64,000 bases of DNA from Pocillopora damicornis. Its lineage: Eukaryota. Position 1 is the first letter of the stretch, and the number at the start of each line of letters is the position of its first letter. This document shows, one piece after another, positions 25,101-64,000 of the stretch. The stretch lies in the NCBI RefSeq assembly GCF_003704095.1, contig NW_020846901.1, forward strand, positions 310,001 through 374,000, read 5' to 3'. Position numbers and translations under genes: made by a program. The notes below the pieces were generated by a model, which saw only the letters and a program-made list of their open reading frames with translations, ran no database searches and was not told where the DNA came from.

Positions 25101-28100
25101 TGATCTGCACCTCATGGAAACTTTCAGGAAATTGTTTGAATCAGAGAATTATGCTTAAGAGACCCGCTAAATTTGTGAAGCGAGCAAGCTGCGAAATACG
25201 ATACCTTCAGTTTACAGGGTGACTCCAGTAAATGGATGATGGAATGGCAGAATCCCGGAATATCCTAAAACGTGGAACGCCTCATTTTATGAAACAAAAG
25301 TCTTTGCAATAAAAATAAGAAAATTATTTAAAATTAACATGGAAAAATCTAAGAAGTAGAGTTTAATTATAATTGGTGCTTAGAGTACAGGTGAACCGTT
25401 AGGCTTTAGAGCTATCCCCTTTCGATCATTATTATATAACTATTGTTCATTATGAGTACTGTTAATTTGATAATTTGTTAGTATTTAATTATTGGTTGAA
25501 TTTCAATTTGTCACTATGTTCTTGAATTATCTTTCTCTTGTGGAACGGGGTACTCATAATATGTGGTATGCGGCAGGTTTTCTGTTTTGCATCTGAATTA
25601 AAATCTTTTGCAACATAACCTTCTAGCGTCATTATATAGCCTCTAGTTCTTTTCATTGCTATAAAAAACTGTGCTGTACTAGTAGCTACACGCAGTCTTA
25701 GACTGCCTATTTTTAACAACAGAATTGCTCTGGAATTGATATAACTAGATATCACACAAAGCCTGACTGTCAAAACATTTTGCGAAGAATCTAGGAAGGT
25801 TTTAACTTTGCCATCGTTGTAATTGTTTAGATACAACACTTGGTCGCTGTTACGCCAAGGTAGAAAGCAGCCGATGTTCTCAGCCCTTGATGAGATTCCT
25901 TACGCTATCGCAGTGCTGTTGTGGAATGGAGAATGGTGGTCAGCGGGGATGGGATGATCCATGTACGCCGTGCCCTCTGAAGGGTACAGGTAGGATTGAT
26001 TTGCTCTTCGCGATTGAAAATAAGAAGTCGCATTGCTTTAAGTAGGGGCTTTGCGGTCGCATGTCCGCAAGGTTGTTCTTCGTCCGCTGTTCCCAGGCTG
26101 AATGTGAATTTGGAGTTTTGATTCTTATAAAAGGGGTAAATGGCAGATGTTGATTGTGTTTTGTCTTGTTTACAGAGAGTTACAACCGAGTTTGTTGTAA
26201 AGGACCCGGAATGACTTGCGGTGGAGATGGTAAGGCCACATGGATGTGTAATTTCGTTGTTAAATTAAGTGAAACGTATAGGGTGACGTGGAGGGAGGGG
26301 GGAGGAGTCCTCATACTGGGTTATTACTTACATTTGGAAGNNNNNNNNNNNNNNNNNNNNNNNNNNNNNNNNNNNNNNNNNNNNNNNNNNNNNNNNNNNN
26401 NNNNNNNNNNNNNNNNNNNNNNNNNNNNNNNNNNNNNNNNNNNNNNNNNNNNNNNNNNNNNNNNNNNNNNNNNNNNNNNNNNNNNNNNNNNNNNNNNNNN
26501 NNNNNNNNNNNNNNNNNNNNNNNNNNNNNNNNNNNNNNNNNNNNNNNNNNNNNNNNNNNNNNNNNNNNNNNNNNNNNNNNNNNNNNNNNNNNNNNNNNNN
26601 NNNNNNNNNNNNNNNNNNNNNNNNNNNNNNNNNNNNNNNNNNNNNNNNNNNNNNNNNNNNNNNNNNNNNNNNNNNNNNNNNNNNNNNNNNNNNNNNNNNN
26701 NNNNNNNNNNNNNNNNNNNNNNNNNNNNNNNNNNNNNNNNNNNNNNNNNNNNNNNNNNNNNNNNNNNNNNNNNNNNNNNNNNNNNNNTTTTTTTTAGATG
26801 TTGATGAGTGTGTGAATAACGCTGGCATGAAGACAAATGTGTGTACCAATGGACAGTGTCAAAACACCATGAAGGATTACATCTGTGTTTGCAACCCAGG
26901 CTACCGCAGCGATGTTACTAAAAAGCTATGCAACGGTTAGAGATAAACTTTATACTCTTGGGTGTCATTAAAGGGAGTTTAACACTTGAGCAGTTTTTAT
27001 CTTAAAGACAGACAGCAGGGTAACTGACAGACAAAGAAAGAGTTTGACATTGGACAGAGGTATGCACAGACAGACTGATAGAAGAGCTAACAAAGAAAGA
27101 CTGAAAGGCTGACAGGATGGCACACTGACACACTGAAAGGCTGACAGACTGACATTCACTCTGGCGTTATATTCTGGTTATATTCCCCACCGACAAAGCA
27201 CCACAGTTTCTTTAGAAACCTACCCATTTATTCATCTGACAGACTGATAGTTGACATACTGACATGAAGAGGGACATTTAGCTAAATTTTCGTGTAGATG
27301 TGGTTAGTTAAGCAGCATTGATCGATGATGGAAACGTCATGTGCGCAGTAGGGACGTAACACGCTTTTAAGAGTAGACACCTGATACAGGCTCCTCAAAA
27401 ATGTTCGCTTTCTGTTAACTTATGCCTCATGAAGCTATACAAAACAATATTGTTGATCATCAAAATTATTAGGTCTCCAATGTTTTCTTTTTAGACATCG
27501 ACGAGTGCACAGAGGACCCAAGACTTTGCCTAGGTGGAAGCTGCCAAAACTTAGCTGGCACTTTCTCCTGTGATTGCCCCAAAGGATTCTCTTTAAATAC
27601 TCAATCTAGAATCTGCGAAGGTAAAGATTTGTTTGTGCAAGTCCAATTTTCTTCCCCTTTTGATTTTGCATACAAGCTTTTCGGTTGTTTCCGTTGCAGT
27701 CATGAAAATGTCGTAGTGAGTAAAATCAAGCTCTACATTTAAGAGTACGTGAAATTTTAACGAGTGTTCTACTTAGTAACCTTTCATACAACTCATGTCT
27801 AACGACGCTAGCCGCTTTATGAGACAAATCGCTGAGAAAATTACACAGCATGGAGGCTTTTCCATCCTATCTAAGTTTAAATTAGATCCCTTTGAAAGCC
27901 CTAGAATGTAGAATGGCCATTATAAGAGAGCGATTCTCCTTCCCTTAAAAAAGTCTTATGCTTTTCCTATCTATGATCGATGATTGATCGATTGTCGTTT
28001 AACCAAACCCGGATAAATAACAACTGCCGATCAGAACGAAAATTGACATCGCAAAGGGCCGGTAAGAACCCATAAGAAAATCCCTACGACGACCAGCTCG

Positions 28101-31100
28101 TTTGCACTTGATTGGTTGAGGATAGCCAGAGTATTCTAGGCCAATCAAACAGGGCAGACAGTGAAGAAAAACTAATAAATCACCGGAACTGCTCCTAACT
28201 GACCTCCTATACTTAAACCACGCTATTTATTCACTTTCAGATATTAATGAATGCGCCTTCGAGGGTCAGTGTATTGCTGGAACGTGTCAAAATACTTTTG
28301 GTAGTTTCCGATGTCAGTGTCCTCGTTATTACGAATTAGATGGATCGGGCAGGATTTGCAAAGGTATCCCTAAAAATTGAATATAAATGATTTGCAAACC
28401 AGAAGGCTATAAAATTGAGAAGTTTGTCTTCTGGCGCCCCTTTATGGAAAATTGGCAATCTAAAAGTTTTCCACGGTCATCTATTTGGTTCCCTCTTCAT
28501 AAATGCACCTCCATGCCTTTGGTCTGTAAATTAAAAACAAACATGAAGAGTCGACTTCGTTTGAAAAGAGCTATCGATGATAAAAAACCTTTCAACTTTA
28601 CAACTACTACATTCTAATGCAATAGTTTTTGGAGGTTACGCGATCTTCCTCGACAAGCTACGGCTATAATTTTGTCCAGTCATTAACCATTAAACTCTGT
28701 TATTCGTGTAAATGTGACTTTGTTATTGAAAACTTTCAGACAAAAGAACAGCGCAATGTTGGACAAAAATCATGAACAATCGCTGCGAGGAATCCATCAA
28801 TGGCGACGTTTCATTAGAAATGTGTTGTAACACCATAGGTAAAGGCTGGGGAAGTCCTTGTGAAGAATGTCCTCCCAGGAAAGGAGGTAAGCGATATTTT
28901 GTTTTGGTAGCGTCGAGTTGCACATCCTGGTCTCAGTCTGCACTTGCATTCCTTTCTCAGTTTTCTCTCTTCCTTTTTTCTTTTTTTTCCTCTCGTTATT
29001 GTGCAACACGTGGGTTTGATGCATAAGCAGATTGGATCTGTGCTACAGATCCTCACCTAGGCAGCCTTATGTTATTCTTGAGTGAAGTGGCGCAGATGAA
29101 ACGAGAAATTTCGTCCATTTGTACCTCTGCACCCCAACTGACCGCCCGATCATAATATAGGTTAAAACAGACTTTCTTCCGTACCATTAAATCCCATGAG
29201 CTATCGAGCACCACCATCTCACAATTTAAGCGCAAATATTAAAAACGAGTGATGAAACTCTTTTTTGCAGATGAGCGGTGTGCTTTAGGGTACGCTATTC
29301 AAGACGAACCAAGATGTACAGGTAACTAATGGGAGAGCTATTTCTCGAGAAGTATGAGGCTATATGGAATTGAGAGAGCAGCCATCACTGCATGTGATGG
29401 GTTACGTAACGATATCAAATCAACAAATTAATTAGTAGTGATACCTATCATGATTGACAGTAACACTGAGCCACTTCTTTGTGGACTCCTTAACTTTTTC
29501 ATTTCTTTTGCCTTATCTCTAAAGAAGTAAAAAATTTTTATTGCAATAAAAGTTTGATTCCTATAATATCTGGGCTCATCAAATAAAACCAAAGAAACGA
29601 TTCTTCAACTGATGGGCGAAAGGTTGTTTAACTAAGTCTTATGAAATATGTGCGCCCTTCAGTGATGGTAGATCTCTTTGTATTTGTGGTTTGCAGACAT
29701 CGACGAGTGTACCCAGTTCCCCGGCTTGTGTAAGAATGGAATCTGTCGTAACACTCTTGGTAGCTTTGTTTGCGAGTGTTCTACAGGCCTGACTTTGGAC
29801 TTCACACAAAAAAACTGCGTGGGTAAGCATAGGTTTGGTCCGTCAATGTTATGAAAAGATGAAAACTACTGGCCTATACCTCTTGCAAAAAAACCCATCT
29901 CGTATGATCTCATTTTTTTACCTTTCCTGTTTTGATGAGTTATGTGGGCGTTGATTTCAGCAATTTCCTAAAACTGATTTCCTTTTGATAGCTATGAATT
30001 AAAGAATAAAAACGTCCATCAACCGGCGGCTGAAGAAACGACTGCCCAGCTAGCTCAGCGACACTGATCGCTGGTGCAGAAGTTGGGTCTATCTGAGTAT
30101 ATATTATTATGCGATCGTAAAGATCATGGTAATCATTCAAACCATCTTCTTAGCGATCACAGCGACCTATAAAAACAAATCCCTTGTTTTTAGACATAAA
30201 GCATGATAAATTTCGTTGATGTTACCAAGATTAATGACAATTATGATTTTCTGTCGGTCTTCTCCCAGATCTTCGGGAGGACGTGTGTTACGGTTCTGTC
30301 TCCTCCAGTGGCTGTGAAAGGCCATACCGAGGAAGGTACAAAAAAGTAGACTGCTGCTGTTCCAAGGTGGGATCGGGTTGGGGTAATCCATGCCAAGAAT
30401 GCCCATTAGAAAACACAGGTAAATAAATACGGACAAGGAAATATCAGGCCACGATAGTGAACGTTCTATAAATACCTTATCCCTTCCAAATTATGATTTG
30501 ATTTCAAGTCACTGTCTCCCAAGTGTCTCTCTCGTGTGTTGTTTACTTATTTTCGGCGTGGCGAGTCAACTGACGTCCCTTAAGTTTCCGAGGTTGAATG
30601 AGCAAAATCTTAGACATGTGAAACAAGCCGTTTCTAGATTGCTCTGAGAAGGGCTAACGCTCGAAACGTCAGCCTTTAAACTCTTTACGGTGGTTAATTT
30701 ACGTTTTCAACTCGGTTGTTAACACTAAATTACCTGTTATACTCTTCAATCGACGCAGCATCATAGTTTCTTCAGAAACTTACCTCCTTTACTCATTTGT
30801 AGGTTCTCCTATTGGGGGTGATCTGTGACTAATTTGCACGGGATTTCCCTTATAGTAACAAAATCGAGACGCAAATTTCTGAAGTCGATGTCCTCTTAGA
30901 ATAATTAAGCGTAGTATGTTAACGAGAAATCTTATTGTATTCTCATATTTTAAACGGTTTACTGTACAGTTTCATTAAACGAAGCGACTCTTCGAAATAT
31001 AGGCTACCCTAGAGTGACACAGAATTTCCAACAAATATCCAGATGCTACTCCTACTCGGAAAGTAACGCGGCTTCTCTATGTAATCTACATTTTCGAACT

Positions 31101-37100: not shown

Positions 37101-40100
37101 ATTATTACTCTAACAATTCCATGTTCATCCTCCCTTTCAGAGGAGTTTCTGCGGCTGTGTCCCGGTGGGATAGGATTTGTTCCAGATCCTTTCACTCTTG
37201 TCATTAAGGGTAGGCTCTTTATAATTTAATCGCATTCCGTGAACTTTAAACATCTGTTTTTTTCTTAATATAATATTCGTTTGACGCGTTTTGTTTTTTA
37301 ATTATCTCATAGATGTGGACGAATGCCGGGAACTCCCAGGGGTATGTAGTCAAGGGCGATGTTTAAACACTCTTGGAAGCTTTGATTGCTTCTGTCCTAA
37401 AGGATTCAAACACGACATTTCTTCTGGAAAATGCATTGGTAAGATGAAGTCTAATTTCAGTTGATCATTCAACTATCTCCTTTATATTCCAATTCCATCA
37501 TTTTAGTTATACCTCTTACTCCAACGGTTCATATTCGCAATTATTTTCCTCGTTGAAAGCTTATCTTGACCCTTCACACCCTGATATCAGTATACATGTT
37601 CTCCATACTATTCGTTATGTGTTTCCTAAGGTGCTGAAAACGAGAATTTGTTTACCAATCAAGATCCTCTTTAGTTGGTGATGATTTCCTTTGTTCTCGT
37701 GACTTTTATGCTTGATTCAGGGGTGATATTGGAAGAAAAATTAGATACTGGTCACTCTCAGTGGTTCAAAGGTTAATAAGCTTCTGTTTTCTTTAGATGT
37801 TGACGAGTGCAAAGAACTGATCTTCATTTGTGGTCTTGATGGGATATGCATCAACACAAATGGAAGTTATGAGTGTGTCTGCCCCGAAGGACAAAAACCA
37901 AACCCGGACGATAAACGTTGTGAAGGTAAGTGACGTGGCTAGAGGTTTTCGCACTGTTTCCTCTCAATTTTTCATTCCACCAGCTAATATCACTACCTTT
38001 TTTTCTTTTTTTTGGTATTTCGTAATTGATCTACAAAACGAAACAACTCAGGCGGTTTTCCTTTTGTTTGAATTTCCTTGTGAAAACAATGTGCCCAGTT
38101 GAAGGAGCGAGACAGTTCCAGGAAATGGCATTACTGGGTTTTGTCGAACTGGCCTCTTTGAATAAACTCAGTTTTCCCTTTCCTGCGCGGAACACCTGAA
38201 AACCTTGCCAAAGTTTTGACCGACGAATAACGTAGACGATCTGTTAAACCAATTATCAACCCTTCTGGGATTGAAAACATGTTAAGACCACAACGCATAC
38301 AGCTGCAGGCTCACGGAATAGACTTTCGTTCCCCACTTCCGTTAGAAATGACCAACTTTCTTATTTTAGCTGGGCCGGATAAATACACAGCGCGCCGAGT
38401 ATTTTGATTCAATCAAAAATTAAAAAAAAAAAATAACGTTGTTGCCTTTGTTCTAGACAATCGACCGCAAGAGTGTTTCATGGAAGTGGAGAACGAGGCG
38501 TCTTCAAATCCTGTTTGCAAGGGCAAGTTTTCTAAGAACGTGACGAGGGGCGATTGTTGTTGCACTGGAGTGGGGGCGGCGTTTGGCTCAGAGTGCAAGC
38601 AGTGTCCAAAGAAAGATTCAAGTAAGATTCAATTACAAATTTTTCTGAATACTTTATGGCTCTTTTGAATATACTGAGAGAAATTGGTTTCATCATCAAG
38701 CTCTGAGCAGCCATTTTCTCGTGACCAAGCTACTTCTGTGGTACTGTAGGACCTACATAACCCATATTATAACAGTCCTTCACGCTTTTTGAAATAAGGC
38801 TTGAGAATTCATTTCTTTCCTCTGTGTTCACTTTCCACAGTCGAATGGACAGCCTTGTGCCTGTCCATAACACGCGTGACACCAACTACGGGTATTGAAA
38901 TAACTCATCCCACTTCCGAACCCTCCGGGGTTGTTCGCCCTCCTGAAGGGGTAACGACCCCATCAACAACAGTCAAGCCTGTGACACAACCGCGTAGAGG
39001 TAAGAGATGGATAACCTCGTATAGAAGATACAAGAGCCACTTGAGTAACGATTCATATCTACCTAAAAAGACAATTTCCGAATTTTTTTTCGGTGAAAAT
39101 TTAAACTTTCGGCTTTTAATCTGAAGCCTTTAAAAACTAAGATATAAATGCATGGGGGATATGTTTGTAAAGAAACTTAGATGATGCGTCGGTGGGAGAA
39201 TATAGCATGTAATTTAGTGTGAACAACTGAGTTGAAAACGTAAATTGGCCACCGTAAAAGGGTAAAAAGCTGACGTTTCGAGGAAGACGACTAGGTGACA
39301 GATTCCGAGAACACCTTCGCGACGTGGAAAGAAATGACAAGAGATAAAATGCATAAATGCATGGAATCGAGAGTACTTGCCAAATGAAAGTTGATAATAA
39401 CGTTAAAACGAAAGAAAAAGGCAAAAAGGTAATACTTTTTAAATATAGTACAATATCGTTATGGAAAAGGCTTGTGGCTTGCTATGTTTTAGCGTTTCTA
39501 GTCTTATCAACTTCCCATACATTAATTATATAATATATTAGTTTTAATTTTCATTTTAGCTTTCATAAGATATCGGAGATTCGCTACCTCTTGATTTTGA
39601 TTTGATTATTTAGGAGTATTTTTATTATGTTATTGAATTCTCTGTTGCAGTCGTGGATGAGTGCGAACTGTTTCCCGAGCTTTGTTTGTACGGAGAATGC
39701 ATCGACACGCGAGACAGCTACAGATGTACATGCCCGCTTGGTTACAAGCTTGGCCCGAGAGGTGTAATGTGTAAAGGTAAATATGATATTTCCTTTAGCT
39801 TTTCATCCTTCTGGGTGAGTTTCAAGTTGTTGCTAGAGCACTGGAAGGATCAAAAGGCTCCAATTGCAACCGTGGCCTGTTCCCTTATTGGCTGGTAAGA
39901 GGTCCGAAGAGACCAATGACGAGCAATCTTTATCGCCTGACGAAAATCGCTGAAGATGATACCCTAAAAAACACCGCCAAATTGACCACTTCTGGAAAAA
40001 TCGAAAATCATCTCGGTTACTTCGTTATCTTATGATTCTGCTTTTAAGCTCACAGGTATATCAGTGACTGCATTGTTTTTCCTTCTAAATAGATGTGGAT

Positions 40101-43100: not shown

Positions 43101-46100
43101 CCTCGTAATTACTTTACACCGTATGATTATCTACTTGACTGTTATTCGTGTTATACCGTTTTATACCAGTCAATTTGTTACAATGTCGATTCAACAGATG
43201 TGCGGGTGGGTTACTGCTTCGAAAAGTTTGACGAGGAAGGTTGCACTAAACCTAATGGACGCGAGATGAGAAAAGCCATGTGCTGTTGTACCGTTGGAGC
43301 CGGCTGGGGTGACCCATGTGAACTTTGCCCGCAGAAAAATACTTGTGAGTATACTGCTATCGTATAACACATCGTGGTTAGTAATTTTTTAGAAATATGA
43401 AAGACAGTCTGCGTTTCCAAGGAAATGTTTGGAAAACTCACATAGTGGAAACTGTGGAAAACCTCTAAGTTACCGAACATCGAACAATTTTCTCTGTCCC
43501 TTATTTCAAAGGATTCGAATGGTTACGGAAGCTGAGTAATTCTTATTTGGGTTACGAACTTTAAAGATTGGACATCTTCAAAAATCATCTGGATTGAATC
43601 AATTAAAAAATTTTCTCAGAGCGTTTAACTCCTATTTATGTGCCATGTTTCGGTATTTTTACTAACCCATTTCAGGTTTGTGTAGACTTCGATAGGAATG
43701 AGGAACAACTGATTTTAATAAAGTGAAATGGTGGAATACTTCTTAAAGTTAGAGCTATACAAAAACTTTGCACATTGCTTTCGAATCATTTGCCTCCAAG
43801 TGGATGTTTACCCATGCGGAAGTGATGTTAGATATGCGGTGAACATTTGTTTCAAGAAAATCACAGCTGAGCGCAGTGAGGCAAAGTTGATGGAATCCTT
43901 CGACTTCCCATTTGAAATTTACACTCTAAGGCGCTCACGTTGTTTTTCAGCTGCCTTTACCCAGTTATGTCCCAATGGTGTTGGATTTGTGATGGACAGG
44001 CATGGTGTTACAGGTGAGATACAGTACAAAGGCGAAGGCAGTTTTTACTGCTTTTGTCCAAAACAAAACAATTCCATTCGCTTTCCTGCTGGAGCATTTA
44101 GCAATACCGGCTCACAGGTATTCTGGGTTTTGCTGCCTGTATCCTTTTTTGTGCAGTTCTTAACATTGCACTGCCTTTTTTTTTCGCTGTTACAGACGTG
44201 AATGAATGTCTCCACATCGCAAATCTTTGCGAAAATGGAGAATGCATCAACAATGATGGAAGCTATCGGTGCAAATGCAAAATGGGATATCAGCTTGATG
44301 AAACTGGAAAGAAGTGTGTCGGTGAGTAATTCTGTTATACCTTAGCTTTGTCAAGTGCTATGTTTTTTATGACACTAGAAGGATTGACCGAGCTGCTAAG
44401 TAATGCATTACAAGAAACCAGTGTTGTTGAGGATGATGACGACAACAATCATAAAATGACGAATAAGAATGGCTAGAGTGATAATGGTGATGATGATAAT
44501 GACGATGATGATAATTACGAAAACGACGACAGGCCTGTTTCGTAACATCCAGTCAATTAGCTATTTTGTATTGTTTTGTTTTTATCTCCGCATTAGATGA
44601 AGATGAATGTGACATGCCCGGTGTCTGTGGTAATGGTCTTTGCGTCAATACAGAAGGCTCTTACACATGCACTTGTCCAAAGGGCTATGCACCAGGCCGC
44701 TTCTCACCACGTTGTTCTGGTAAGGACTGGGTTCCAGGTTACGTGAAACACTTTATCAATCAGTAACTGCCTCTTGTTTTTTTTTGTAACGTACTTCTGT
44801 TCTTTCTACGTTTAACGCATATTTTTGGTTCTCTATAACTGAAAAAATTGTGCTCTAATTTTAAAACCTGCTTTAATTCCATAGATGTCAATGAGTGTGT
44901 ACAAAACAACGATCTTTGCGCGTTCCGTTGTGTGAATCAGCCGGGAAGCTACCGATGTATCTGTCCTCGAGGATTCGACTTGGCCCCAGACAAGATTCAT
45001 TGCAGAGGTAAATGAAGGCCTCATCAATGGCACACATCACGTGTTCAGATATAATCATGAAGTCGAGGCTTATTTGTATCTTATTGGAAAAGATGAGATA
45101 AACAACCAAAGCAAGATGGAACAAAAGCCTTCCTTCGGTTGTCTTTGTTTTTCTGTAACAAGTTTCAAGCAGACTTGTTTCCAATAGACGTTGAAGGTTG
45201 AAACCTGTTCTCCAAATATGCGTAAAAACGTCGTTATTGTAGCTCAGTATGGCTCATTTCTATTACTATTCAAAAATCAATCGGCTCAAAACATGCCGAG
45301 GAAGCTTTTCTCATTCAAAACCGTGAGCGTTATCCTAAGAGAATTGGAGAAAATTTTAAATAATCAAAACAAAACTAGAAGAACTTGGAGTTGCAAATTT
45401 GAACACGATTGTTTTAATCTGCTTTTTCCTTTCCTGTAGATATCAATGAATGCAGAGAAAACACCAGATTGTGTCCGTTCGTTTGTAAGAATTTTATCGG
45501 CGGTTTTAAGTGCAGGTGTCCCGCGGGATTCAGAGGAAATGGTCAGATATGTGAAGGTAAGCTGAATTGTTACATAGACAAATAATTGATATATTTAACT
45601 TACACCCAAACATTGCACGCACGTTACGCCCATAAGTAAAAAGATGTCATATCACGAGGAAAAAACAGCTACACATCGTCTGTAAAGGAAATTGATGATT
45701 TAGGAAACGGGAAGGCTTCGAGTGAGTGACATCATGTAACTTGGAAAGCGCGGATGAAAGTCATATCTGTCAAAAATTGACTCATTTCGAAATGTAGAGT
45801 ACTGACTTCTACCAAATTGGTGGAATCTGTATATCGTGCTGCACGGCCTAACAGGTAAGTTTAGTTTAAGACAGATGATTTTCTACGGCTGCCTGAATTT
45901 TCAGGGGTTTAGAACCAAGCATCAAAGAGATAAATCGACGTCAATTATTTGACAAATATTTTCACTGACTTTTCCCTTAGATATCAATGAATGCCGGGAA
46001 AAGTTGGATATTTGTCAAAATGGCGCGTGCAGAAACCTCGCGGGGACTTACATCTGCGACTGTGACTCGGGGTATCAGCGGAGTGCGGATGGAAAGGAGT

Positions 46101-52069: not shown

Positions 52070-53097
52070 ATGCCTACCACTGCATTCTTGGATCAGTATT
52101 CTCCCGAGGCGGACAACTCTTCAAGCTTTAACGAAATTACGGAAGAAACGACAAATTTGAATACAGCTGAACGAAACAGTAAGGCCGTGTTCTACTGTTG
52201 CTTGTTCCTTCTCGGCTCCTTAGGGAATGCAATGGTTATTTTGGTATTGAAAGGAAAGCGAAAACGAACCATTAATGATTATTTTATTTTAAACTTGGCA
52301 GTAGCAGACTTAACTTTCTTGTGGCTGTCACTTCCTTTCTATACGTACGAACTTTTTCAGCCGTTTAACAAGAATTTATTGTATTGTAAACTAATTTGGC
52401 CGATGATGTCAGTTACTTCATCAGTCAGTGTTTTCACCTTAACGTCCATGGCAGTCGAACGGTGTCGAGGAATCACAAACCCTTTGCAACCGAGAATCAA
52501 GCCGCAAGCCACGTTGATATGGATTTTCCTTATCTGGATCTTTGCCATCTTTACTTTAGTTCCGTTGATGATCGTGGCGCGGTCGGAAGGTGTGTTCTGT
52601 GCGGAAAATTGGCCGAAGAACTACTATCATCAAGCGTACACTGCTGTTTTATTCGCTCTTCAATATGGCATCCCCTTGTTTGTAATCGCCACAGCATACT
52701 TTAGAATCGCTATTTTTCTTATCAGATCTCGGTTACCGATGCTAACAACGATCAACTCTAAGGGGGAGGTTATCAGGCACAAAACGAGAAGCGAAAATGT
52801 TCAGATAATCCGGACACTGGCTGTTATTGTGATTTTGTTCATGGCCTGCATGTTTCCCAATCAAATCGCTTGGATGCTGTTTGATTTTGGCGGTGCCTCG
52901 CACAAGAAGCTGTCCGACGCATTTTGGACCTGCGCAGAGGCGTTCGTGTTTTTACACGCTTGTATAAACCCAATAGTGTACGGTTCTCTTACTCGGCAGT
53001 TTTGTCGAGGATACATCCGATTCTTCCGACACATTTTCTGCTTCTGCAAAGTGAACGTCGATTACCCAATTGGTGTTTCTCACAACCAGACAGAAGA
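52070..53097 (+). CDS. Rhodopsin-like (class A) GPCR, peptide-receptor-like, copy 1; C-terminus lost in gap
   Basis: Intronless 7TM with GNAMV (TM1), NLAVADL (TM2), C3.25, MAVERC (TM3), C.E.WP (ECL2), CMFP (TM6), NPIVY (TM7) and an N-terminal NSS sequon. Confidence 0.9.
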
Positions 53098-53197
53098 NNN
53101 NNNNNNNNNNNNNNNNNNNNNNNNNNNNNNNNNNNNNNNNNNNNNNNNNNNNNNNNNNNNNNNNNNNNNNNNNNNNNNNNNNNNNNNNNNNNNNNNN

Positions 53198-54356
53198 GGT
53201 ATTGAAAAGAAAGCGAAAACGAACCATTAATGATTATTTCGTTTTAAACTTGGCAGTAGCAGACTTAACTTTCCTGTGGCTTTCGCTTCCTTTCTATACG
53301 TACGACCTTTTTCAGCCGTTTAACAAGAATTTATTGTATTGTAAACTAATTTGGCCAATGATGTCGGTTACTTTATCAGTCAGTGTTTTCACCTTAATGT
53401 CCATGGCAGTCGAACGGTGTCGAGGAATCACAAACCCTTTGCAACCGAGGATCAAACTGCAAGCCACATTGATATGGATTTTCCTTATATGGATCTTTGC
53501 CTTTGTCACGATTGTTCCGTTGATGATCGTGGCGCGGTCGGAAGGTGTGTTATGTGCAGAAAATTGGCCGAAGAACTACTATCGTCAAGCTTACACTGTA
53601 GTCTTATGTATTCTTCAATATGGCATCCCTTTGTTTGTAATCGTCATAGCATACCTGAGAATCGCTTTTTGTCTTATCAGGTCTCGGTTACCGATGCTGA
53701 CAACGATCAATGCTAAAGGCGAGGTAATCAGGCACAAAACGAGAAGCGAAAATGTCCAGATAATCCGGACACTGGCTGTTATTGTGATTTTGTTCATGGC
53801 CTGCATGCTTCCCAATCAAATCGCCTGGTTGTTGTTTGACCTTGGAGGTGACTCGTACAAGGAGCTGTCCGACGCATTTTGGACCTGCGCAGAAGCGCTA
53901 ATGTACCTACACGCATGCGTGAACTCGATTGTATACGGTTCTCTTACTCGACAGTTTCGTCGAGGATACGTCCGATTCTTCCGACACATTTTCTGCTTCG
54001 GTAAAACCAACGTCGATTACTCAACTGGTGTTATTGAAAATCACACAGGAGACAAACATTTACAACCAAAGCGAAAAGCTGGCGTACTTTATGGCTCTCT
54101 TAAATTCAGAAAAATCAGTGAAAACACTAGAACGACACGCTTGATAGTGAATTCCTCTCCGATTATGTCCACAAGTGAAGAAAGTATCAATCAGTTAGCA
54201 AGCCCCTCGCCTGGCTCTTCCCCAGTCCCTAATTCAGCCGGCATAGAGATGTTATTAAGAAGAACTCAGGCGAAGGAAACTCTATTGAAACTGGCCTTTA
54301 TTAACCCGGGTATGGACACGTCTGATGACGATAGTTGCCAGGAAACTAAACTGTAA
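53198..54356 (+). CDS. Rhodopsin-like (class A) GPCR, copy 2; N-terminus lost in gap
   Basis: Close paralogue of copy 1 from ICL1 onwards, with NSIVY in TM7 and a long Ser/Pro-rich tail ending CQETKL*. Confidence 0.9.
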
Positions 54357-55868: not shown

Positions 55869-56390
55869 TCAAATGACACCCCATGATTGAGTCTTGGGTT
55901 TTATGTCAAGGATATCGCGCCAATAATTCGTCACGAACACTTGGTCCAGAATCAAGCTCTTCTCGCCTACAGATTTAACAAACCATCCATCATTTACGAT
56001 GAGTGTGATGCTTTCAAACTCAACACCTGGCTGCGGAAGGTGCTCGCCCCAGTGCAGGCGGGTTTCAGGAATTTTCAGCAGAATATTCCACAATTACGAG
56101 AAGAATGTCTTGGGATACGCCTTGTTGTACGTCCACCAGTAGGGATCGTCTCGCACCATGTCTTGTTGGTATGACATGCTCAGCCAGAATGGAGAGCTCT
56201 TAGCGCCGTAAATCTCAATGGCAAAGTTGTTAGCCGCTTTTTGATTCTTCGAGAACAGCTTTTGTTTGGAGCTTCCACACCATGTTTGACATTGGTCAAT
56301 TGGAACCCAGATCTCTGTAAATTCCACCCTGATGATAGAGTCCACCTGGACCTCGTTGTCCATGGACAGATCATGAAACCAATGAATAAA
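55869..56390 (-). pseudogene. C-terminal fragment of a gulonolactone/arabinonolactone oxidase-like FAD oxidase
   Basis: DLSMDN..VEFTEIWVPI..FAIEIYGAKSSPFWLSMSY..DPYWW..*LWNILL..RLHWGEHLP..VFVTNYWRDIL. In-frame TAA at 56094-56096. The RxHWG motif is typical of the ALO C-terminal domain. Confidence 0.7.
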
Positions 56391-58030
56391 GGAGGTAAGT
56401 TCTAAAGAAATTGTAGTGCTGTGTCGGTTGAAGAGTATCACTATTAATAGGTAATAAACAATATGGACAATGGGCTGAGATGCAAGGGTCTGATTGAAGT
56501 TGGACGTCCTCAATTTTACACAAATCCTATACACTTTTTTTATTATGAGCAGAAATTCATGACGTCAAACTCTTGATGCGCAGATGGAGTTAAAATTAAG
56601 GTGAAGCAGGTAACACACCAGGGGAATATGGTCGCCAACGGAAAATTCCGATATCTGACATGCCAAATACCGGCGATTTTTTTTCGCCATTCGTAGCGAT
56701 TGGCGAAAATCACGATCGCTGCACTATTTTTCCATCAAACAAAAAAAAATCATCCTAAAACCTTCAGTGAAGCTATGTGACAATAATAACTAATGAAAGC
56801 GTTTTCAAAGTATTATGCTGTACAGAACGTCGGAAAAGCGTGTAGCTGTAGAATGATCAAGAGCAGATATCTACGCCTTTGTCACGCGCTCCTTTACAAC
56901 TCCTTGATCCACCGACTTGCAAAGACTTGATCTAGGGGTTTTTCCTAGCCTGTGCGCTTAAAATCCATGATTTCTTCCCTATAATGTAAATTTCCTTTTT
57001 TAATTACAGTTATAAATGAATTTCTGTGTATGACATGGAAATATTGTATGTTGAGCTCGACTCTGATGTCTCAGTGTTTAGACTCCAGAAATAAGCTTAA
57101 CATTTGCAAACATTTGTCAACCTTTGCAAACACTAGATTTAAACTCATCCGGCAAAAGTGACTTAAATTCAATACACGTCATGGAAATTTGAGCGAAATG
57201 TAAATTCCTATCCGAGACAAAAACGTAAAAGCTACCCTTTTCTTTTCCTCTCAATTAATCTACACTATTTTTACAAGTAATGGATTTACGAGCTCCCTTT
57301 TTTGACGAAAACGGAAATTAGCGAAATGACAAAACAAAAGTCAACAAACTTCTTTAGTCAAATGTAAATATTATAGGCGTTTGTAAATACAGAAACATCT
57401 TCTGTATTCAAACCAACCAGCTTATTTTGTGGCCACTTCTCTGTGACTTTCAGAGTAAAATGTTATGATTAGAATTATACTTGGCTCAATTTCAAAGTTT
57501 TACTTGTAATTCATTTGCCTCAATTTTTGAAAATTTTTTTTCATCTACCTTACTAATTACTGTTCTTTCTATTTCCGCAGCATAAGATCCTTTTTTAGGT
57601 AAAAGGAAACTTTTATGTCAAAATTTAAATGTATTAATCAACCTTCAGGAAGTTCAGTTAAAATCTACCTGTCAGTATTACTTAGCCATCGACCTTTCAT
57701 TTGCTACAGTTCTTTGTAAACATGACAACTATCATTTACCGGAGAAAATATTCTAAGATTACTTCGAGAGTATTAAGGTGGTTTTATTTATTTTTGTTCT
57801 CATCAGCACTTCGGAATCCNNNNNNNNNNNNNNNNNNNNNNNNNNNNNNNNNNNNNNNNNNNNNNNNNNNNNNNNNNNNNNNNNNNNNNNNNNNNNNNNN
57901 NNNNNNNNNNNNNNNNNNNTACAATATCGACCTCAAACAAAACGATTCTTTCAGTACGTGATCAAGATCGTGACACATTGACGCGAGCAGCATGTCTGAA
58001 CTCTTATCGACAACGTCAAATTGGCGATCT

Positions 58031-58123
58031 CTGACGAAGGGCCAACGCTCGAAACGTCAAACTTTTTACTCTTTACGGTGTCCAATTTACGTTTTCAACT
58101 CAGTTGTTAACACTATATTACCT
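58031..58123 (+). mobile_element. Hammerhead-bearing short repeat with an intact catalytic core sequence
   Basis: CTGACGA (58031-37), A, GGGC-CAAC-GCTC stem II, GAAAC GTC (58051-58), followed by the family body. Confidence 0.75.
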
Positions 58124-58333
58124 AAGAAATTTTATTGCCAATATGCACGAAATAACTCTAATGATAACTAATAGTTCTGTTCTATTATATGACGCAATAA
58201 AATCTCATGGATTTTTCAATTTTTTTCTTCAGTTTCAGAGGCTGATAGGGCTAGTGCGGCCAAAGCATTCTTTAGTAAGATCGTCACTCCTATTGTCGAT
58301 CTCTCGTCGGGATTAAATTTGTTGGACCCAGTA

Positions 58334-59170
58334 ATGGTGCATCTTATGGAAGATGCGGCAAAAAGTATTGTAGCTCCTGGAGGTCCCATTGTGCCGGAAG
58401 AATATGTTCGATCCTCCGTTTCCAATACTCAAGACGTTATAGATGCAGTTAAAAGAGCTAAGAGGGAGAAGAAAGTCCTCCGTGTCGTTGGATCGGAACA
58501 CTCCGTAAACGCGGCCATTTATCCTGAGGATGGCATCACACTGGTCCTAAAGGATGATCTTCGAAAAGTAGAAATACTGCACACAGCCGAAGAAGATGGC
58601 AAGAAATGGTTGTATTGTCGTATCGGAGGAGGCTGCTATCTTGGCAAAGATCCCTTGGACCCCAATTCAGCTTGCTATCAGGTGGCAGTTCAAGGGTATG
58701 GCTTTCCTGAGCTGGGAGGAATCAAGTTGGTGGCTTTATCATGACTGGCTCTGCAGGTGGAAGCTTAAAGCATACCTTTGCTGATGTCATCCAAGAGATC
58801 GAGTTTGTGGACGGCAATGCACAAGTTCAAAGGGCCGAACGTGGAACTGATCTTTGGTGTGCGGTAGGTGTTTCCATGGGGCTGTTTGGTGTCATTACCC
58901 GAGTAACATTCCGTCTTCCACCGATGCAGTTTATCAAAGGGTCAGAGTCCAACCACAAGTTTGCTGACTCCATGCTAGGACCCAACAACGAGGGGCAGAG
59001 CAAGCTCAGGAAAAGTCTTGAAGAAAACGAATACATGCGAGTAAACTGGTTTCAACAAAAGGAAGTGATGCGTGTTCAGGAATGGGTTGGTCAACAATCC
59101 TTCGAAAACAATAATCTTGTACCATACAACTCCATTTTGTCCAACATATTAGCAGCTGGTATGGCAGCCA
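58334..59170 (+). pseudogene. N-terminal half of an intronless gulonolactone-oxidase-like FAD oxidase, frameshifted and truncated by a gap
   Basis: LRVVGSEHSV (flavinylation His motif), GGGCYLG, FPELGGI / frameshift at about 58724 / VGGFIMTGSAGGS, IEFVDG, AVGVSMGLFGVITRVTF: FAD_binding_4 (PCMH-type) signature. Confidence 0.75.
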
Positions 59171-59299
59171 NNNNNNNNNNNNNNNNNNNNNNNNNNNNNN
59201 NNNNNNNNNNNNNNNNNNNNNNNNNNNNNNNNNNNNNNNNNNNNNNNNNNNNNNNNNNNNNNNNNNNNNNTGAAGAGTGTATTTGACCGTTCAGCTACC

Positions 59300-60032
59300 T
59301 TTCTCTACATTGTAATTAAATGAACTTCCATGGTTGATCTTGATCAAACATTTGAAACCAAGCTTTTCTCCTCGCGTGAAAATATTTGCTGTTTAGCCAC
59401 AAAGCTAGCGTAAAAGGGGAAAGAAAACCAGTCAAAACCGTTATTGCATGAGGTCTCTGCTTGATTTCGGCGGAAATACGCACTTTGTTCGATGCTTGTT
59501 TTCATCGATATCTCGTTTTGCCACCCACGTTGTGTGCATCAAACAAGATGTCGAATGAATTTGCTTGATCGTTTAGCCAGGGGTTTACAGTTCAGTGGCC
59601 TCTAAAATGCTTCTAAAATGAGATTAGGAACTTACAGTTAATTGACGCCCCCTCGGATTGACACTCAGAGTAGTGTGCTGAGAGCTTTGTTGTGCTAAAT
59701 GGTCAACAGATAGACATCAGATCTTGACACGACATTTTCCCCAGGCTACAAAGAAGTACACTCGACTCCTTGATTCTCAAAATATGTAAGCCATGGCTGT
59801 GTTTGCAGAGCAAGAACAGTTCTGGTATTAACATTTTCCCCGATAATCTCAAATACAAAGTGATTAAAAGCCTCCGATTTCAATTTGCGTATTAATCTTT
59901 AGTTTTAATGTTATTTTGATGAGCATTTTCCGCAATGGTTTGACTGCCTTTCTCTTATATCACGTACATGAAGCATATCTCGTCATTCTAATGCTATTTT
60001 CATAAGTAAGGGAAACGTCGCAGATGAAGGAG
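59300..60032 (+). repeat. Duplicated non-coding block, copy A
   Basis: Directly repeated at about 60828-61585 (e.g. cttccatggttga.cttgatcaaacatttg ... aagggaaacgtcgcagatgaaggag). Confidence 0.85.
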
Positions 60033-60396
60033 ATGAAATGAACAGTTAAACAGAGGCGTATCTGCTACTGATGATTAAACAGCTACGTGCTTTGCGGACG
60101 TACTAAATAACATGATACTTAAAAAACGCCTTTATCAATCGTTATTATTATGTAACCTAAGAGTATTAGGATGATTTTTCCGTTTCATGGAAAACCAAAT
60201 ATCAGTTACTAAGGGACACTAGTAATCCACTCTAAATCCACTGAAGCATGAGGGATGATATCCTTCAACTGCTATTGGTCGAGAGATGGCGGTGTTNNNN
60301 NNNNNNNNNNNNNNNNNNNNNNNNNNNNNNNNNNNNNNNNNNNNNNNNNNNNNNNNNNNNNNNNNNNNNNNNNNNNNNNNNNNNNNNNNNNNNNNN

Positions 60397-61585
60397 CTGC
60401 TATTGGTCGAAATTCAAAGGTTATAGCGTAAAGGTTCCCCCAGTGCTTTTACTGTACGTGCAGACTTTTCGGACTGAATCTGGGTGTGTATCGTTAACAG
60501 TAAGCCGACAGCTTTGTTCATCCAAACAATGGCCGCAAAAGCAGGTAAGAAGCCTAACATTTTCAAAGATGCATCGGTGTTGTTTGATTGAATTAACTGG
60601 CCTGGGACTCAACTATAACTTTTTTCAATAATCAATGCAATAGTTGCACAGGATCTTGCCAACTTTTTAGTGGAAAAGTGTCAAATGAATGCGGAACAGT
60701 AATATGATAAAAGCGATACATTGAATCATGTTCAGTTCGTTCGAAAATATTTGCTGTTTAGGCACAAAGCTGGTATGAAATAGAAAAATATCCTAGTTAA
60801 AACCGATATTGCATCGAAGCCTCTGCTTTCTCTATATTTTAATTAACTGACTTTCCATGGTTGAACTTGATCAAACATTTGCAACTAATCTTTTCTCCTC
60901 GCGTGAAAATATTTATTGTTTAGCCATAAAGCTAGTATAAAAGGGAAAAGAAAATCAGTCAAAACCGTTAGTTGTATGAGGTCTCTGCTTGATTTCGGTG
61001 GAAATACGCACTGTGTTGGATGTTTGTTCTCATCGATATCTAGTTTTGCCCACCCACGTTGAGTGCATTAAACAAGATGTCGAATGAATTTGCTCGATCG
61101 TTTAGCAAGGGGTTTACAATCCAGTCGCCTCTAAAATGCTGCTAAAATGAGATTAGGAACATTTAATTGTCGCCCCTTCGGATTGACACTCAGAGTAGCG
61201 TGCTGGTACGTAACAACAATCAGTTGGTAGAAAACTTGGTTCTTCAAAATAGTCAACAGGTAGACGTTAGATCTTGACACAACATTTTCCCCAGGCTACA
61301 AAGAAGTACACTCGACTCCTTGATTCTCAAAAAATGATAGCCGCAGCCATGTTTGCAGAGCAAGAACAGTTCTGGTATTTATATTTTCCCCGATAATGTC
61401 AAATGCAAAGTGATTAATAACCTCCGATTTCAATTTGCTCGTTAATCTTTAGTTTTAATGTTATTTTGATAAGCATTCTTCGCAATGGTTTCAAGACTGC
61501 CTTTCTCTTATATCACGTACATGATGCATAGCTCGTTATTCTAATGTTATTTTCATAAATAAGGGAAACGTCGCAGATGAAGGAG
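60397..61585 (+). repeat. Duplicated non-coding block, copy B
   Basis: Its 3' part matches copy A; 60397-61373 is the reverse complement of 61686-62725. Confidence 0.85.
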
Positions 61586-61685
61586 NNNNNNNNNNNNNNN
61601 NNNNNNNNNNNNNNNNNNNNNNNNNNNNNNNNNNNNNNNNNNNNNNNNNNNNNNNNNNNNNNNNNNNNNNNNNNNNNNNNNNNNN

Positions 61686-62725
61686 CAGAACTGTTCTTGC
61701 TCTGCAAACATGGCCGCGGCTATCATTTTCTGAGAATCAAGGAGTCGAGTGTACTTCTTTGTAGTCTGGGGAAAATGTTGTGTCAAGATCTAACGTCTAC
61801 CTGTTGACCATTTTGAAGAACCAAGTTCTCTACCAACTGATTGTTGTTACGTACCAGCACACTACTCTGAATGTCAATCCGAAGGGACGACAATTAAATG
61901 TTCCTAATCTCATTTTAGCAGCATTTTAGAGGCGACTGGATTGTAAACCCCTGGCTAAACGATCGAGCAAATTCATTCGACATCCTGTTTGATGCACTTA
62001 ACGTGAGTGGCCAAAACTAGATATCGATGAGATTCGACTAGATAGAGGCGACTGGATTGTAAACCCCTGGCTAAATGATCGAGCAAATTCATTCGACATC
62101 CTGTTTGATGCACTTAACGTGAGTGGGCAAAACTAGATATCGATGAGAACAAACTTGGAACACAGTGCATATTTCTGCCGAAATCAAGCAAGAGACCTTT
62201 TGCAACTAACGGTTTTGACCGGTTCTCTTTTCCCTTTTATACTAGCTTTATGGCTAAACAGCAAATATTTTCACGAGAAGAGAAAAGATTGGTTGCAAAT
62301 GTTTGATCAAGATCAACCTTGGAAAGTCAATTAATTACAATGTAGAGAAAGCAGGGGCTTCGATGCAATATCGGTTTTAACTAGGTTATTTTTCTATTTC
62401 CACTAAAAAGTTGGCAGGATCCTATGTAACTATTGCATTGATTATTGAAAAAAGTTATAGTTGAGTCCCAGGCCAGTTAATTCAATCAAACAACACTGAT
62501 GCATCTTTGAAAATGTTAGGCCAGTTAATTCAATCAAGCAACACTGATGCATCTTTGAAAATGTTAGGCTTCTCACCTGCTTTTGCGGCCATTGTTTGGA
62601 TGAACTATGCTTTCGGCTTACTGATAACGACACACACCCAGATTCAGTCCGAAAAAGTCTGCACGTACAGTAAAAGCACTGAGGGAACCTTAACGCTATA
62701 ACCTTTGAATCTCGACCAATAGCAG
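61686..62725 (-). repeat. Duplicated non-coding block, copy C (inverted)
   Basis: Reverse complement of copy B, with internal tandem duplications at about 61928-62030/62044-62146 and about 62471-62520/62519-62568. Confidence 0.85.
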
Positions 62726-62904: not shown

Positions 62905-63106
62905 CGACTATAATGTGAATAGAATAAGAGAGGTGGTAAGTTTTGAGCTCGGTAAAGAAATACAGAAGGATGTTTTTCGTCTTGTCTCGAGCGTGGAACA
63001 AAGAAAACATTCTGAGTCCCCATGAAGAATCGAACGTCAGACTTTCGGATTCCGCGCTCCGATGCTCTTCCACTGAGCCATAGAGACTCAACGTTGAGCG
63101 AGGTCT
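62905..63106 (-). mobile_element. tRNA-derived SINE
   Basis: On the minus strand, A box TGGCTCAGTGG (63070-63080) and B box GTTCGATTC (63027-63035) in a tRNA-like head, followed by a non-tRNA tail. Confidence 0.8.
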
Positions 63107-63203
63107 GTGATCATTATCCAGTTTTTATGGTTCCTTGCTGGGAATGGATCTTACAAATAAAAAATAGGCACAAACGGGAAAGACCCCAAACACTTCTTAT
63201 TGG

Positions 63204-63750
63204 GAGCAGAAATTTATGACGTCAAACCCTTGATGTGCAGTTGAAGTGCACACAATTGAATGATGAAAAAACCTCTTATAAAGAATTCCTTTTTTTCCCC
63301 GCGTACATAAAATATACTTTATTAATCCGTCTGCCTTCAGGGCTTTAGATGCCAGTATAAACGTACATATAATCACGTCTACGTCGGTTTAGAACTGATT
63401 TTCCATTGAATCTTTTTGTAGAGTGACTGNNNNNNNNNNNNNNNNNNNNNNNNNNNNNNNNNNNNNNNNNNNNNNNNNNNNNNNNNNNNNNNNNNNNNNN
63501 NNNNNNNNNNNNNNNNNNNNNNNNNNNNNTGTGAGCAGAAATTTATGACGTCAAACACTTGATATGCAGGTGAAATGTAAACAATGAAACAATCTCTTAT
63601 AAAGGCTTTCTTTTTTTCCCCCGCGTACATGAAATGTACTTTATTAGTCCGTCTGTCTTCAGGGTGTTACACGCCAATATAAACGTACGTATAATCACGT
63701 CTCCGTTGATTTAGAACTGATTTTCCATGGAATCTTTTTGTAGAGTGACT
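63204..63750 (+). repeat. Direct duplication of about 225 bp flanking a gap, each copy with TGACGTCA
   Basis: 63204-63429 and 63533-63750 align from gagcagaaatttatgacgtcaaac to gaatctttttgtagagtgactg with scattered differences. Confidence 0.85.
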
Positions 63751-64000
63751 GTACTCAGTGAACGACTATTAATAGCCATTTAACGAAGTCGACATCGAGC
63801 GTGTGTGGTGTCTATTTCAAGTGAAGTGTCATTTAAAAAAACGCATATGTATCCATTTCGTTCCACACGAAGTAGGTCATATCACGACTCTTGCATCCTT
63901 GCACGCTATGTCCTAATTTTTACTGCAAAATATACAGCTTGCTCATTTATTATCTCCAAGTCCGAAGAAGATGAAGTAATCACGGTCTTGTTACGATAGG

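What the first reader, a model, noticed from the sequence alone, without database searches (positions are those of the whole stretch)
58026..58066. Minimal type I hammerhead ribozyme core in a dispersed repeat
Seen: CUGACGA-A-[GGGC caac GCUC]-GAAAC-GUC, i.e. both conserved core strands, a 4-bp stem II and a tiny palindromic AC/GU stem III with a GUC cleavage triplet at 58056-58058. Established: this minimal architecture is typical of Penelope-like retroelement repeats and retrozymes, and is thought to cleave as a dimer. Inference: this repeat is a catalytic-RNA-bearing retroelement remnant. Stem I is poor in this copy; the family consensus appears to be GCT...AGC.
Basis: partly seen in the sequence, partly recalled or inferred. 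Interest (0 to 1): 0.7.

Follow-up and report, generated by a model that had tools for sequence, protein, structure and literature searches.

The report
Hammerhead in truncated Penelope end repeat
This is a real but ordinary, cut-down end of a Penelope-type jumping gene carrying an already published minimal hammerhead-ribozyme motif; this copy has lost the stem and the promoter-like boxes of its family and is likely inactive, and the family's copy ends suggest that most insertions came from RNA that had not cut itself.

Summary
The hammerhead core at 58031-58058 heads a 95-bp copy (58029-58123) of the end repeat (pLTR) of a Penelope-like retrotransposon. Longer copies run into RT (PF00078) and GIY-YIG frames that end about 120 nt before the core. 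The same family motif is printed as a PLE-associated minimal hammerhead of Acropora digitifera in the supplement of PMC4209133. The genome holds 1753 core matches against 29 for the control. Stem I pairs at 18 of 18 positions across six hand-picked lineages (best of 720 permutations). It is not a tandem retrozyme. This copy keeps 1 of 3 stem I pairs and lacks the tail and upstream boxes, so it is likely inactive. Side result: of 80 sampled insertion events, 51 begin 3-14 nt before the core and 3 at the cut site. CCAAT and TATAAA lie at -64 and -38. The hammerhead therefore likely fills the first ~35 nt of the transcript, and inserts likely come from uncut RNA. Cleavage was not tested. The scan found such pLTR ends before in other genomes.

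The parts
58029..58123 (+). Truncated solo pLTR copy of a Penelope-like element. It starts 2 nt before the core, ends at the family's short (tail-less) 3' end, and has no CCAAT/TATA region. No target duplication is seen.
   Evidence: 7 differences from the majority of 51 sampled copies over 95 columns
58031..58058 (+). Minimal type I hammerhead core: CUGACGA, extra A, 4-bp stem II, GAAA, ACGU palindrome, GUC triplet. The predicted cut falls between 58058 and 58059.
   Evidence: same family motif in PMC4209133 supplement
58028..58061 (+). Stem I positions (58028-58030 with 58059-58061). Only the pair next to the core is kept; the 5' strand is cut short by the insertion edge and the 3' strand is mutated.
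   Evidence: contigs of other runs mostly show G at 58060
30638..30799 (+). Sibling pLTR copy with tail; one base is missing in the core 5' strand
39156..39341 (.). Inverted joint: pLTR arm with tail (39282-39156, minus strand, truncated inside stem II) fused to a 61-bp piece of the GIY-YIG frame (39281-39341, plus strand)
   Evidence: blastn 95% over 61 bp and tblastn 20 of 20 residues
46866..46897 (+). Degenerate hammerhead of a related repeat (core U4 and A9 changed)
27179..27240 (+). Tail-only fragment of the same pLTR
56382..56438 (-). Tail-only fragment of the same pLTR

Best explanation
The motif is the published minimal hammerhead in the end repeat of a Neptune/Nematis-type Penelope-like retrotransposon, and this 95-bp copy is a truncated, likely dead insertion of that end repeat. 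Shown: longer copies join the motif to RT and GIY-YIG frames; most sampled insertions are head-to-head pairs with one tailed and one tail-less arm; their 5' ends pile up just before stem I. Inferred: a CCAAT/TATA promoter in the pLTR starts RNA about 7 nt before the core. The element's RT then primes internally at two sites about 95 and 150 nt downstream and runs off the 5' end of uncut RNA, which gives thousands of short promoterless copies. In intact elements the hammerhead would cut slowly, as a dimer through the ACGU palindrome or with help from the element's protein (by analogy with tested PLE hammerheads). The window copy cannot form stem I and would at most be read passively with host RNA.
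For: L034 is contiguous from RT (PF00078, E 3.4e-7) through GIY-YIG (PF01541, E 3.1e-4, just below the curated cut-off) to the hammerhead. The linker has C-x4-C-x2-C and the N-terminal part has DKG and KGLNF motifs. [quoted passage not shown] Stem I pairs at 18 of 18 positions in six lineages (permutation mean 8.8, 1 of 720); stem II pairs 2-4 at 14 of 18 (20 of 720). Subfamily-diagnostic columns: 0 of 23 non-CpG hammerhead columns against 10 of 39 others (p=0.01; p=0.04 and 0.02 at two other thresholds). Of about 88 events 59 are inverted, and 42 of the 44 with both arms classifiable pair a long with a short 3' end. Outermost 5' end: -14..-3 in 51 of 80 events, at the cut site in 3. TATAAA at -38 in 19 of 30 long copies; CCAAT at -64 in 20 of 28. 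Computed active dimer form: -12.3 kcal/mol for a family copy, +1.1 for the window copy.
Against: No cleavage was measured, and only assembled contigs were available, which cannot show RNA ends or strand. No intact single frame and no pLTR-to-ORF-start tandem junction were found among 40 fetched ORF loci and one pattern search. Within the family the core decays about like the non-diagnostic rest (4.9% against 6.6% at non-CpG sites). The 51 copies behind the column test were those aligning through the core, which favours conserved cores. The active dimer is far above the dimer minimum (-28.9), and the monomer minimum pairs the core 5' strand with the cleavage site. The six lineages were chosen by eye: L100 (1 pair) and likely chance hits were left out, and D, F and G rest on one or two copies. 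The transcription start is inferred from motif spacing only.
Confidence: 0.85

Rival explanations
1. The repeat is a non-LTR retrozyme: a tandem, non-coding unit that makes circular RNA by hammerhead cleavage.
For: Coral retrozymes exist and are expressed as circles (PMC7229834, passages). RNA-library contigs hold the repeat.
Against: No tandem array covers it. 59 of about 88 events are head-to-head inversions and the rest are solo or unresolved. The motif is the minimal PLE type, and the copies continue into a protein frame.
Confidence: 0.04
2. The 5' pile-up at about -7 marks an endonuclease nick or processing site in the element's own DNA, not the RNA start.
For: The Anolis PLE endonuclease prefers 5'-ATT-3' in its own ORF-pLTR junction (PMC11167929), and the minus strand of this family reads ATT at -7..-5.
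Against: TATAAA starts 31 nt before the -7 base and CCAAT lies at -64. CCAAT boxes also precede the hammerhead in two unrelated families. The canonical TATA spacing is recalled, not from a call.
Confidence: 0.25
3. The conserved bases are a DNA promoter element downstream of the start, and the hammerhead fold is vestigial or incidental.
For: D. virilis Penelope has a downstream promoter element containing ACGT (PMC2377424, passages), and GAAACG would sit near +28 of the inferred start. PLE hammerheads cut poorly in vitro (PMC4209133), and cleavage is not needed for insertion in vitro (PMC11167929).
Against: Stem I and stem II covary across lineages, and G10.1-C11.1 is invariant although the search pattern did not ask for it. 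A DNA element would not need pairing.
Confidence: 0.08
4. The window copy has been co-opted by the host, for example to cut the RNA of the neighbouring FAD-oxidase-like gene.
For: It lies on the same strand about 105 nt before an acceptor-like run. Its left junction is bridged in two runs and its right junction in three runs labelled as different organisms.
Against: Stem I is broken and the copy differs from the family majority at 7 of 95 columns. The neighbouring frame shifts near 58724-58744 in this assembly.
Confidence: 0.03

Closest known systems
Minimal hammerheads in pLTRs of metazoan PLEs; Acropora digitifera entry (Cervera and de la Pena 2014, PMC4209133)
   Same: Family motif identical in the printed parts: stem I GCU/AGC, core 5' strand with extra A, stem II GGGC/GCUC, loop UAAC, CGUC; the entry is marked as PLE-associated.
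   Different: The window copy has loop CAAC and a broken stem I. The passages seen do not describe the 5' pile-up or the promoter boxes.
EN+ PLEs of the Neptune/Nematis type, with inverted 5'-truncated pLTR and one-sided tail (PMC8557442, PMC3846280)
   Same: RT, then CX2-5CxxC linker, then GIY-YIG; head-to-head inversions; tail on one arm; TATA-like box in the pLTR as in Pen2a_Av.
   Different: The tail here is about 55 nt rather than 30-40. No intact partial tandem was recovered, and the clade was not resolved by a tree.
PAc, Poseidon of Anolis carolinensis (PMC11167929)
   Same: Two RT start sites matching the tail; uncut RNA is the main template; the hammerhead lies near the pLTR end.
   Different: PAc is Penelope/Poseidon clade and its ORF starts inside stem II. 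Here no ORF start downstream of the hammerhead was found.
Non-LTR retrozymes of corals (PMC7229834)
   Same: Type I hammerhead in a coral repeat.
   Different: Retrozymes are 220-240-bp tandem units with canonical hammerheads; this one is dispersed, minimal and tied to a PLE frame.

Membership tests
Minimal PLE hammerhead (family motif) | Conserved core with an extra base between 9 and 10.1, and a G10.1-C11.1 pair | tested here: met
Minimal PLE hammerhead (family motif) | Palindromic minimal stem III | tested here: met
   ACGU at 58054-58057
Minimal PLE hammerhead (family motif) | Stem I and stem II pairing with covariation across families | tested here: met
   18 of 18 and 14 of 18 in six hand-picked lineages
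Minimal PLE hammerhead (window copy) | Closing stem I in this copy | tested here: not met
   1 pair; active dimer form +1.1 kcal/mol
Hammerhead ribozyme | Self-cleavage 3' of GUC | not testable with these tools
   no bench assay; only contigs, no raw RNA reads
EN+ Penelope-like element | RT and C-terminal GIY-YIG frame next to the repeat | tested here: met
   L034; GIY-YIG score 21.4 bits against cut-off 22.6
EN+ Penelope-like element | Inverted 5'-truncated pLTR and one-sided tail | tested here: met
   59 of about 88 events inverted; 42 of 44 asymmetric
EN+ Penelope-like element | Partial tandem pLTR-ORF-pLTR with an intact frame | tested here: inconclusive
   not found in 40 ORF loci or by one pattern; the assembly is fragmented and searches score only 40 candidates
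Neptune or Nematis clade | CX2-5CxxC motif in the RT-EN linker | tested here: met
   C-x4-C-x2-C in L034 and L051; definition
Neptune or Nematis clade | RT phylogeny placing it in one of the two clades | not tested
   no reference set was fetched
Non-LTR retrozyme | Tandem units, each with a hammerhead | tested here: not met
Non-LTR retrozyme | Circular RNA | not testable with these tools
   contigs only

The most novel reading that the evidence does not exclude
In this coral's PLE families the hammerhead occupies the first ~35 nt of a CCAAT/TATA-driven polymerase II transcript. Cutting would remove the capped leader and act as an off-switch or translation switch rather than release unit-length RNA. 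The thousands of short dispersed copies are then run-off cDNAs of uncut RNA, and their ends map both the cap site and the two RT start sites in vivo.
Probability: 0.4. Interest if true: 0.45.

Novelty: already known. Interest (0 to 1): 0.17.

Why it matters
The copy itself matters little: it is one of well over a thousand decayed pLTR ends, and the motif has been in print since 2014. What PLE hammerheads do is still called unclear in the literature (PMC8557442, passages). This family offers a dense natural record of insertion ends. It suggests that inserts come from uncut RNA and that the ribozyme sits right behind the transcription start, which cap mapping and one cleavage assay could test.

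Tried and rejected
Rfam scan at E<=1: no hammerhead family hit. The idea that the core's UGA is the stop codon of the ORF was rejected; the real frame ends about 120 nt upstream. An inverted remnant just upstream of the window copy is not significant (28 of 189 random window 40-mers score as well). No target duplication was seen at the window copy; 5 of 17 solo copies show one of 7 bp or more. A downstream hairpin ending at the short 3' end has weak energy (z -0.4 to -0.8) and no consensus fold. No intron joint in the pLTR appeared among the listed contig joints, though 56 joints were not shown. The search for a pLTR-ORF tandem junction gave 22 matches; 10 were examined and none led into the ORF's N-terminal part. 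No empty-site joint was found in three presumed DNA runs. The one RNA run laid on the locus had no cover at 58130-58759, which proves nothing. The neighbouring gene has no paralogue or solved relative, so its upstream exon and the intronic position stay unproven. Lunse et al. (dimer cleavage) is not held and is known here only through a review passage. The supplement of PMC7229834 and file 1 of the PMC4209133 supplement could not be read; they may describe this family further.

Full report
Observation. In the window alone a loose core pattern is at chance level (5 found, 6.6 expected), and Rfam has no hammerhead hit. The genome search settles it. Bases 58029-58123 match a dispersed repeat at about 80-94% identity, the best hits at 92-94% (65 matches from 40 scored of 1561 candidates). 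The pattern CTGANGAN{10,26}GAAACGTC occurs 1753 times against 29 for the reversed control, and a 20-mer of the repeat body occurs 1618 times against 0. Runs that hold the element include coral metagenomes and metatranscriptomes.

What the repeat belongs to. Copies that extend upstream run into a protein frame that ends about 120 nt before the core. L034 is contiguous from an RT segment (PF00078, E 3.4e-7) through a GIY-YIG segment (PF01541, E 3.1e-4, 21.4 bits against a cut-off of 22.6) to the hammerhead. The linker carries C-x4-C-x2-C and the N-terminal part carries KGLNF and DKG. By the definition read this is a Neptune- or Nematis-type Penelope-like element; I built no tree. Inside the window, 39156-39341 joins an inverted pLTR arm to 61 bp of the GIY-YIG frame. 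None of 40 fetched ORF loci was intact or showed a partial tandem, and a pattern search for the pLTR-ORF junction failed.

Is it a selected RNA structure? Unrelated repeats in this genome share the core but differ in their stems. In six lineages chosen by eye (three represented by one or two copies; L100 and likely chance hits left out), the first three stem I positions pair 18 of 18 times. The permutation mean is 8.8, and 1 of 720 permutations does as well. Stem II positions 2-4 pair 14 of 18 times (20 of 720). G10.1 and C11.1 are invariant in seven aligned motifs although the pattern did not specify them. Within the family, 51 of 99 sampled copies span the motif. Their non-CpG core sites differ from the majority at 4.9%, against 13.2% for the rest, or 6.6% once subfamily-diagnostic columns are removed. 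So copies decay about neutrally, while diagnostic changes avoid the hammerhead (0 of 23 columns against 10 of 39; p=0.01, and 0.04 and 0.02 at other thresholds). This subset leans toward conserved cores.

The window copy. It starts at -2 relative to the first core base and ends at the family's short 3' end. It differs from the sample majority at 7 of 95 columns and keeps one stem I pair. The active dimer arrangement evaluates to +1.1 kcal/mol against -12.3 for L034. For both, the predicted monomer minimum pairs the core 5' strand with the cleavage site, an inactive fold. The left junction is bridged by contigs in two runs and the right junction in three runs labelled as different organisms, with no empty-site joint, so the insertion is real and probably old. 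It lies on the strand of a FAD-oxidase-like frame (PF01565, E 1.2e-5, below cut-off), about 105 nt before an acceptor-like run. The intronic position is not proven.

How the family most likely works. I sampled the first 100 listed matches of a 20-mer that lies outside the hammerhead and recovered 99 distinct copies. The 3' ends fall in two classes, about +88..106 and +130..165, with 46 copies each. After merging paired arms (9 merges; a few pairs may remain unmerged) there are about 88 events. Of these 59 are head-to-head inversions, and 42 of the 44 classifiable ones pair a long arm with a short arm. This is the known one-sided tail, which PMC11167929 ties to two RT start sites. The outermost 5' end lies at -14..-3 in 51 of 80 gap-free events, further than -60 in 8, and at the cut site (+28) in 3. 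Those three sit at inversion joints with short microhomology. A minor use of cut RNA is not excluded (Poisson p about 0.02 against the local background). Long copies carry TATAAA at -38 in 19 of 30 and CCAAT at -64 in 20 of 28. CCAAT boxes also lie at -59 to -88 in 6 of 9 copies of family B and 5 of 6 of family C. With the recalled TATA-to-start spacing of about 31 nt, the start falls at -7. I infer that short copies are run-off cDNAs of uncut RNA, and that cleavage, if it occurs, would remove a capped leader of about 35 nt. A nick at the ATT on the minus strand at -7..-5 is the main rival for the pile-up. RNA-library contigs cover the element and most deeply the pLTR, but they cannot show strand, ends or the source locus.

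Comparison with what is known. The supplement of PMC4209133 prints this family's motif for Acropora digitifera and marks it as PLE-associated. Its main text reports no monomer cleavage and low dimer cleavage for a schistosome minimal hammerhead (parts 1-2 of 4 read). PMC7229834 counts more than 6000 type I motifs in 16 families in A. millepora, most of them minimal (passages; supplement unreadable). PMC11167929 shows protein-assisted cleavage, no need of cleavage for insertion, and no RNA-seq ends at the cut site (parts 1-2 of 4). Inversions, tails and a TATA-like box in a pLTR are described in PMC8557442 and its preprint (passages) and PMC3846280 (passages). PMC2377424 (passages) describes a TATA-less internal promoter in D. 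virilis Penelope. I read part 1 of 5 of the 2026 retrozyme preprint and passages of the review PMC6765202. Lunse et al. was not available. One search for pLTR, truncation, hammerhead and transcription start together returned only PMC8557442, whose passages do not place the hammerhead at the start site; that is a thin search. The scan's earlier notes report the same kind of pLTR ends in other genomes and none for this sequence.

Verdict. Already known; interest 0.17. The one lead of value is the inferred promoter-start-hammerhead order and the scarcity of inserts beginning at the cut site.

Noticed in passing
L073, L244, L220, L239, L055, L234, L049: At least five further repeat lineages with minimal hammerheads and different stems; 389 genome matches have a longer stem II (control 29). 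No PLE frame was found beside them in the 3-kb loci held.
   Followed up: partly
window 58230-59170: FAD-linked oxidase-like frame with a frameshift near 58724-58744; a contig of run X20 has 10 extra bases at 58724-58725, so this may be a broken allele or an assembly error.
   Followed up: partly
window 63015-63087 (minus): tRNA-like match (Rfam 43 bits), possibly the head of a tRNA-derived repeat.
   Followed up: no
window 52243-54052, 59299-62725, 63201-63751: Duplicated stretches at about 81-98% identity on both sides of 100-N gaps, likely haplotype overlaps or assembly artefacts.
   Followed up: no
window 42702-43367: Frame with calcium-binding EGF and TB domains, fibrillin-like.
   Followed up: no
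L068 2286-5918: Large palindromic arrangement of two deleted PLE copies with four pLTR pieces.
   Followed up: no
family positions +61..+79: One subfamily has linked changes at +63 and +76 (12 of 51 copies) that would complete an 8-bp hairpin; confounded with subfamily descent.
   Followed up: partly
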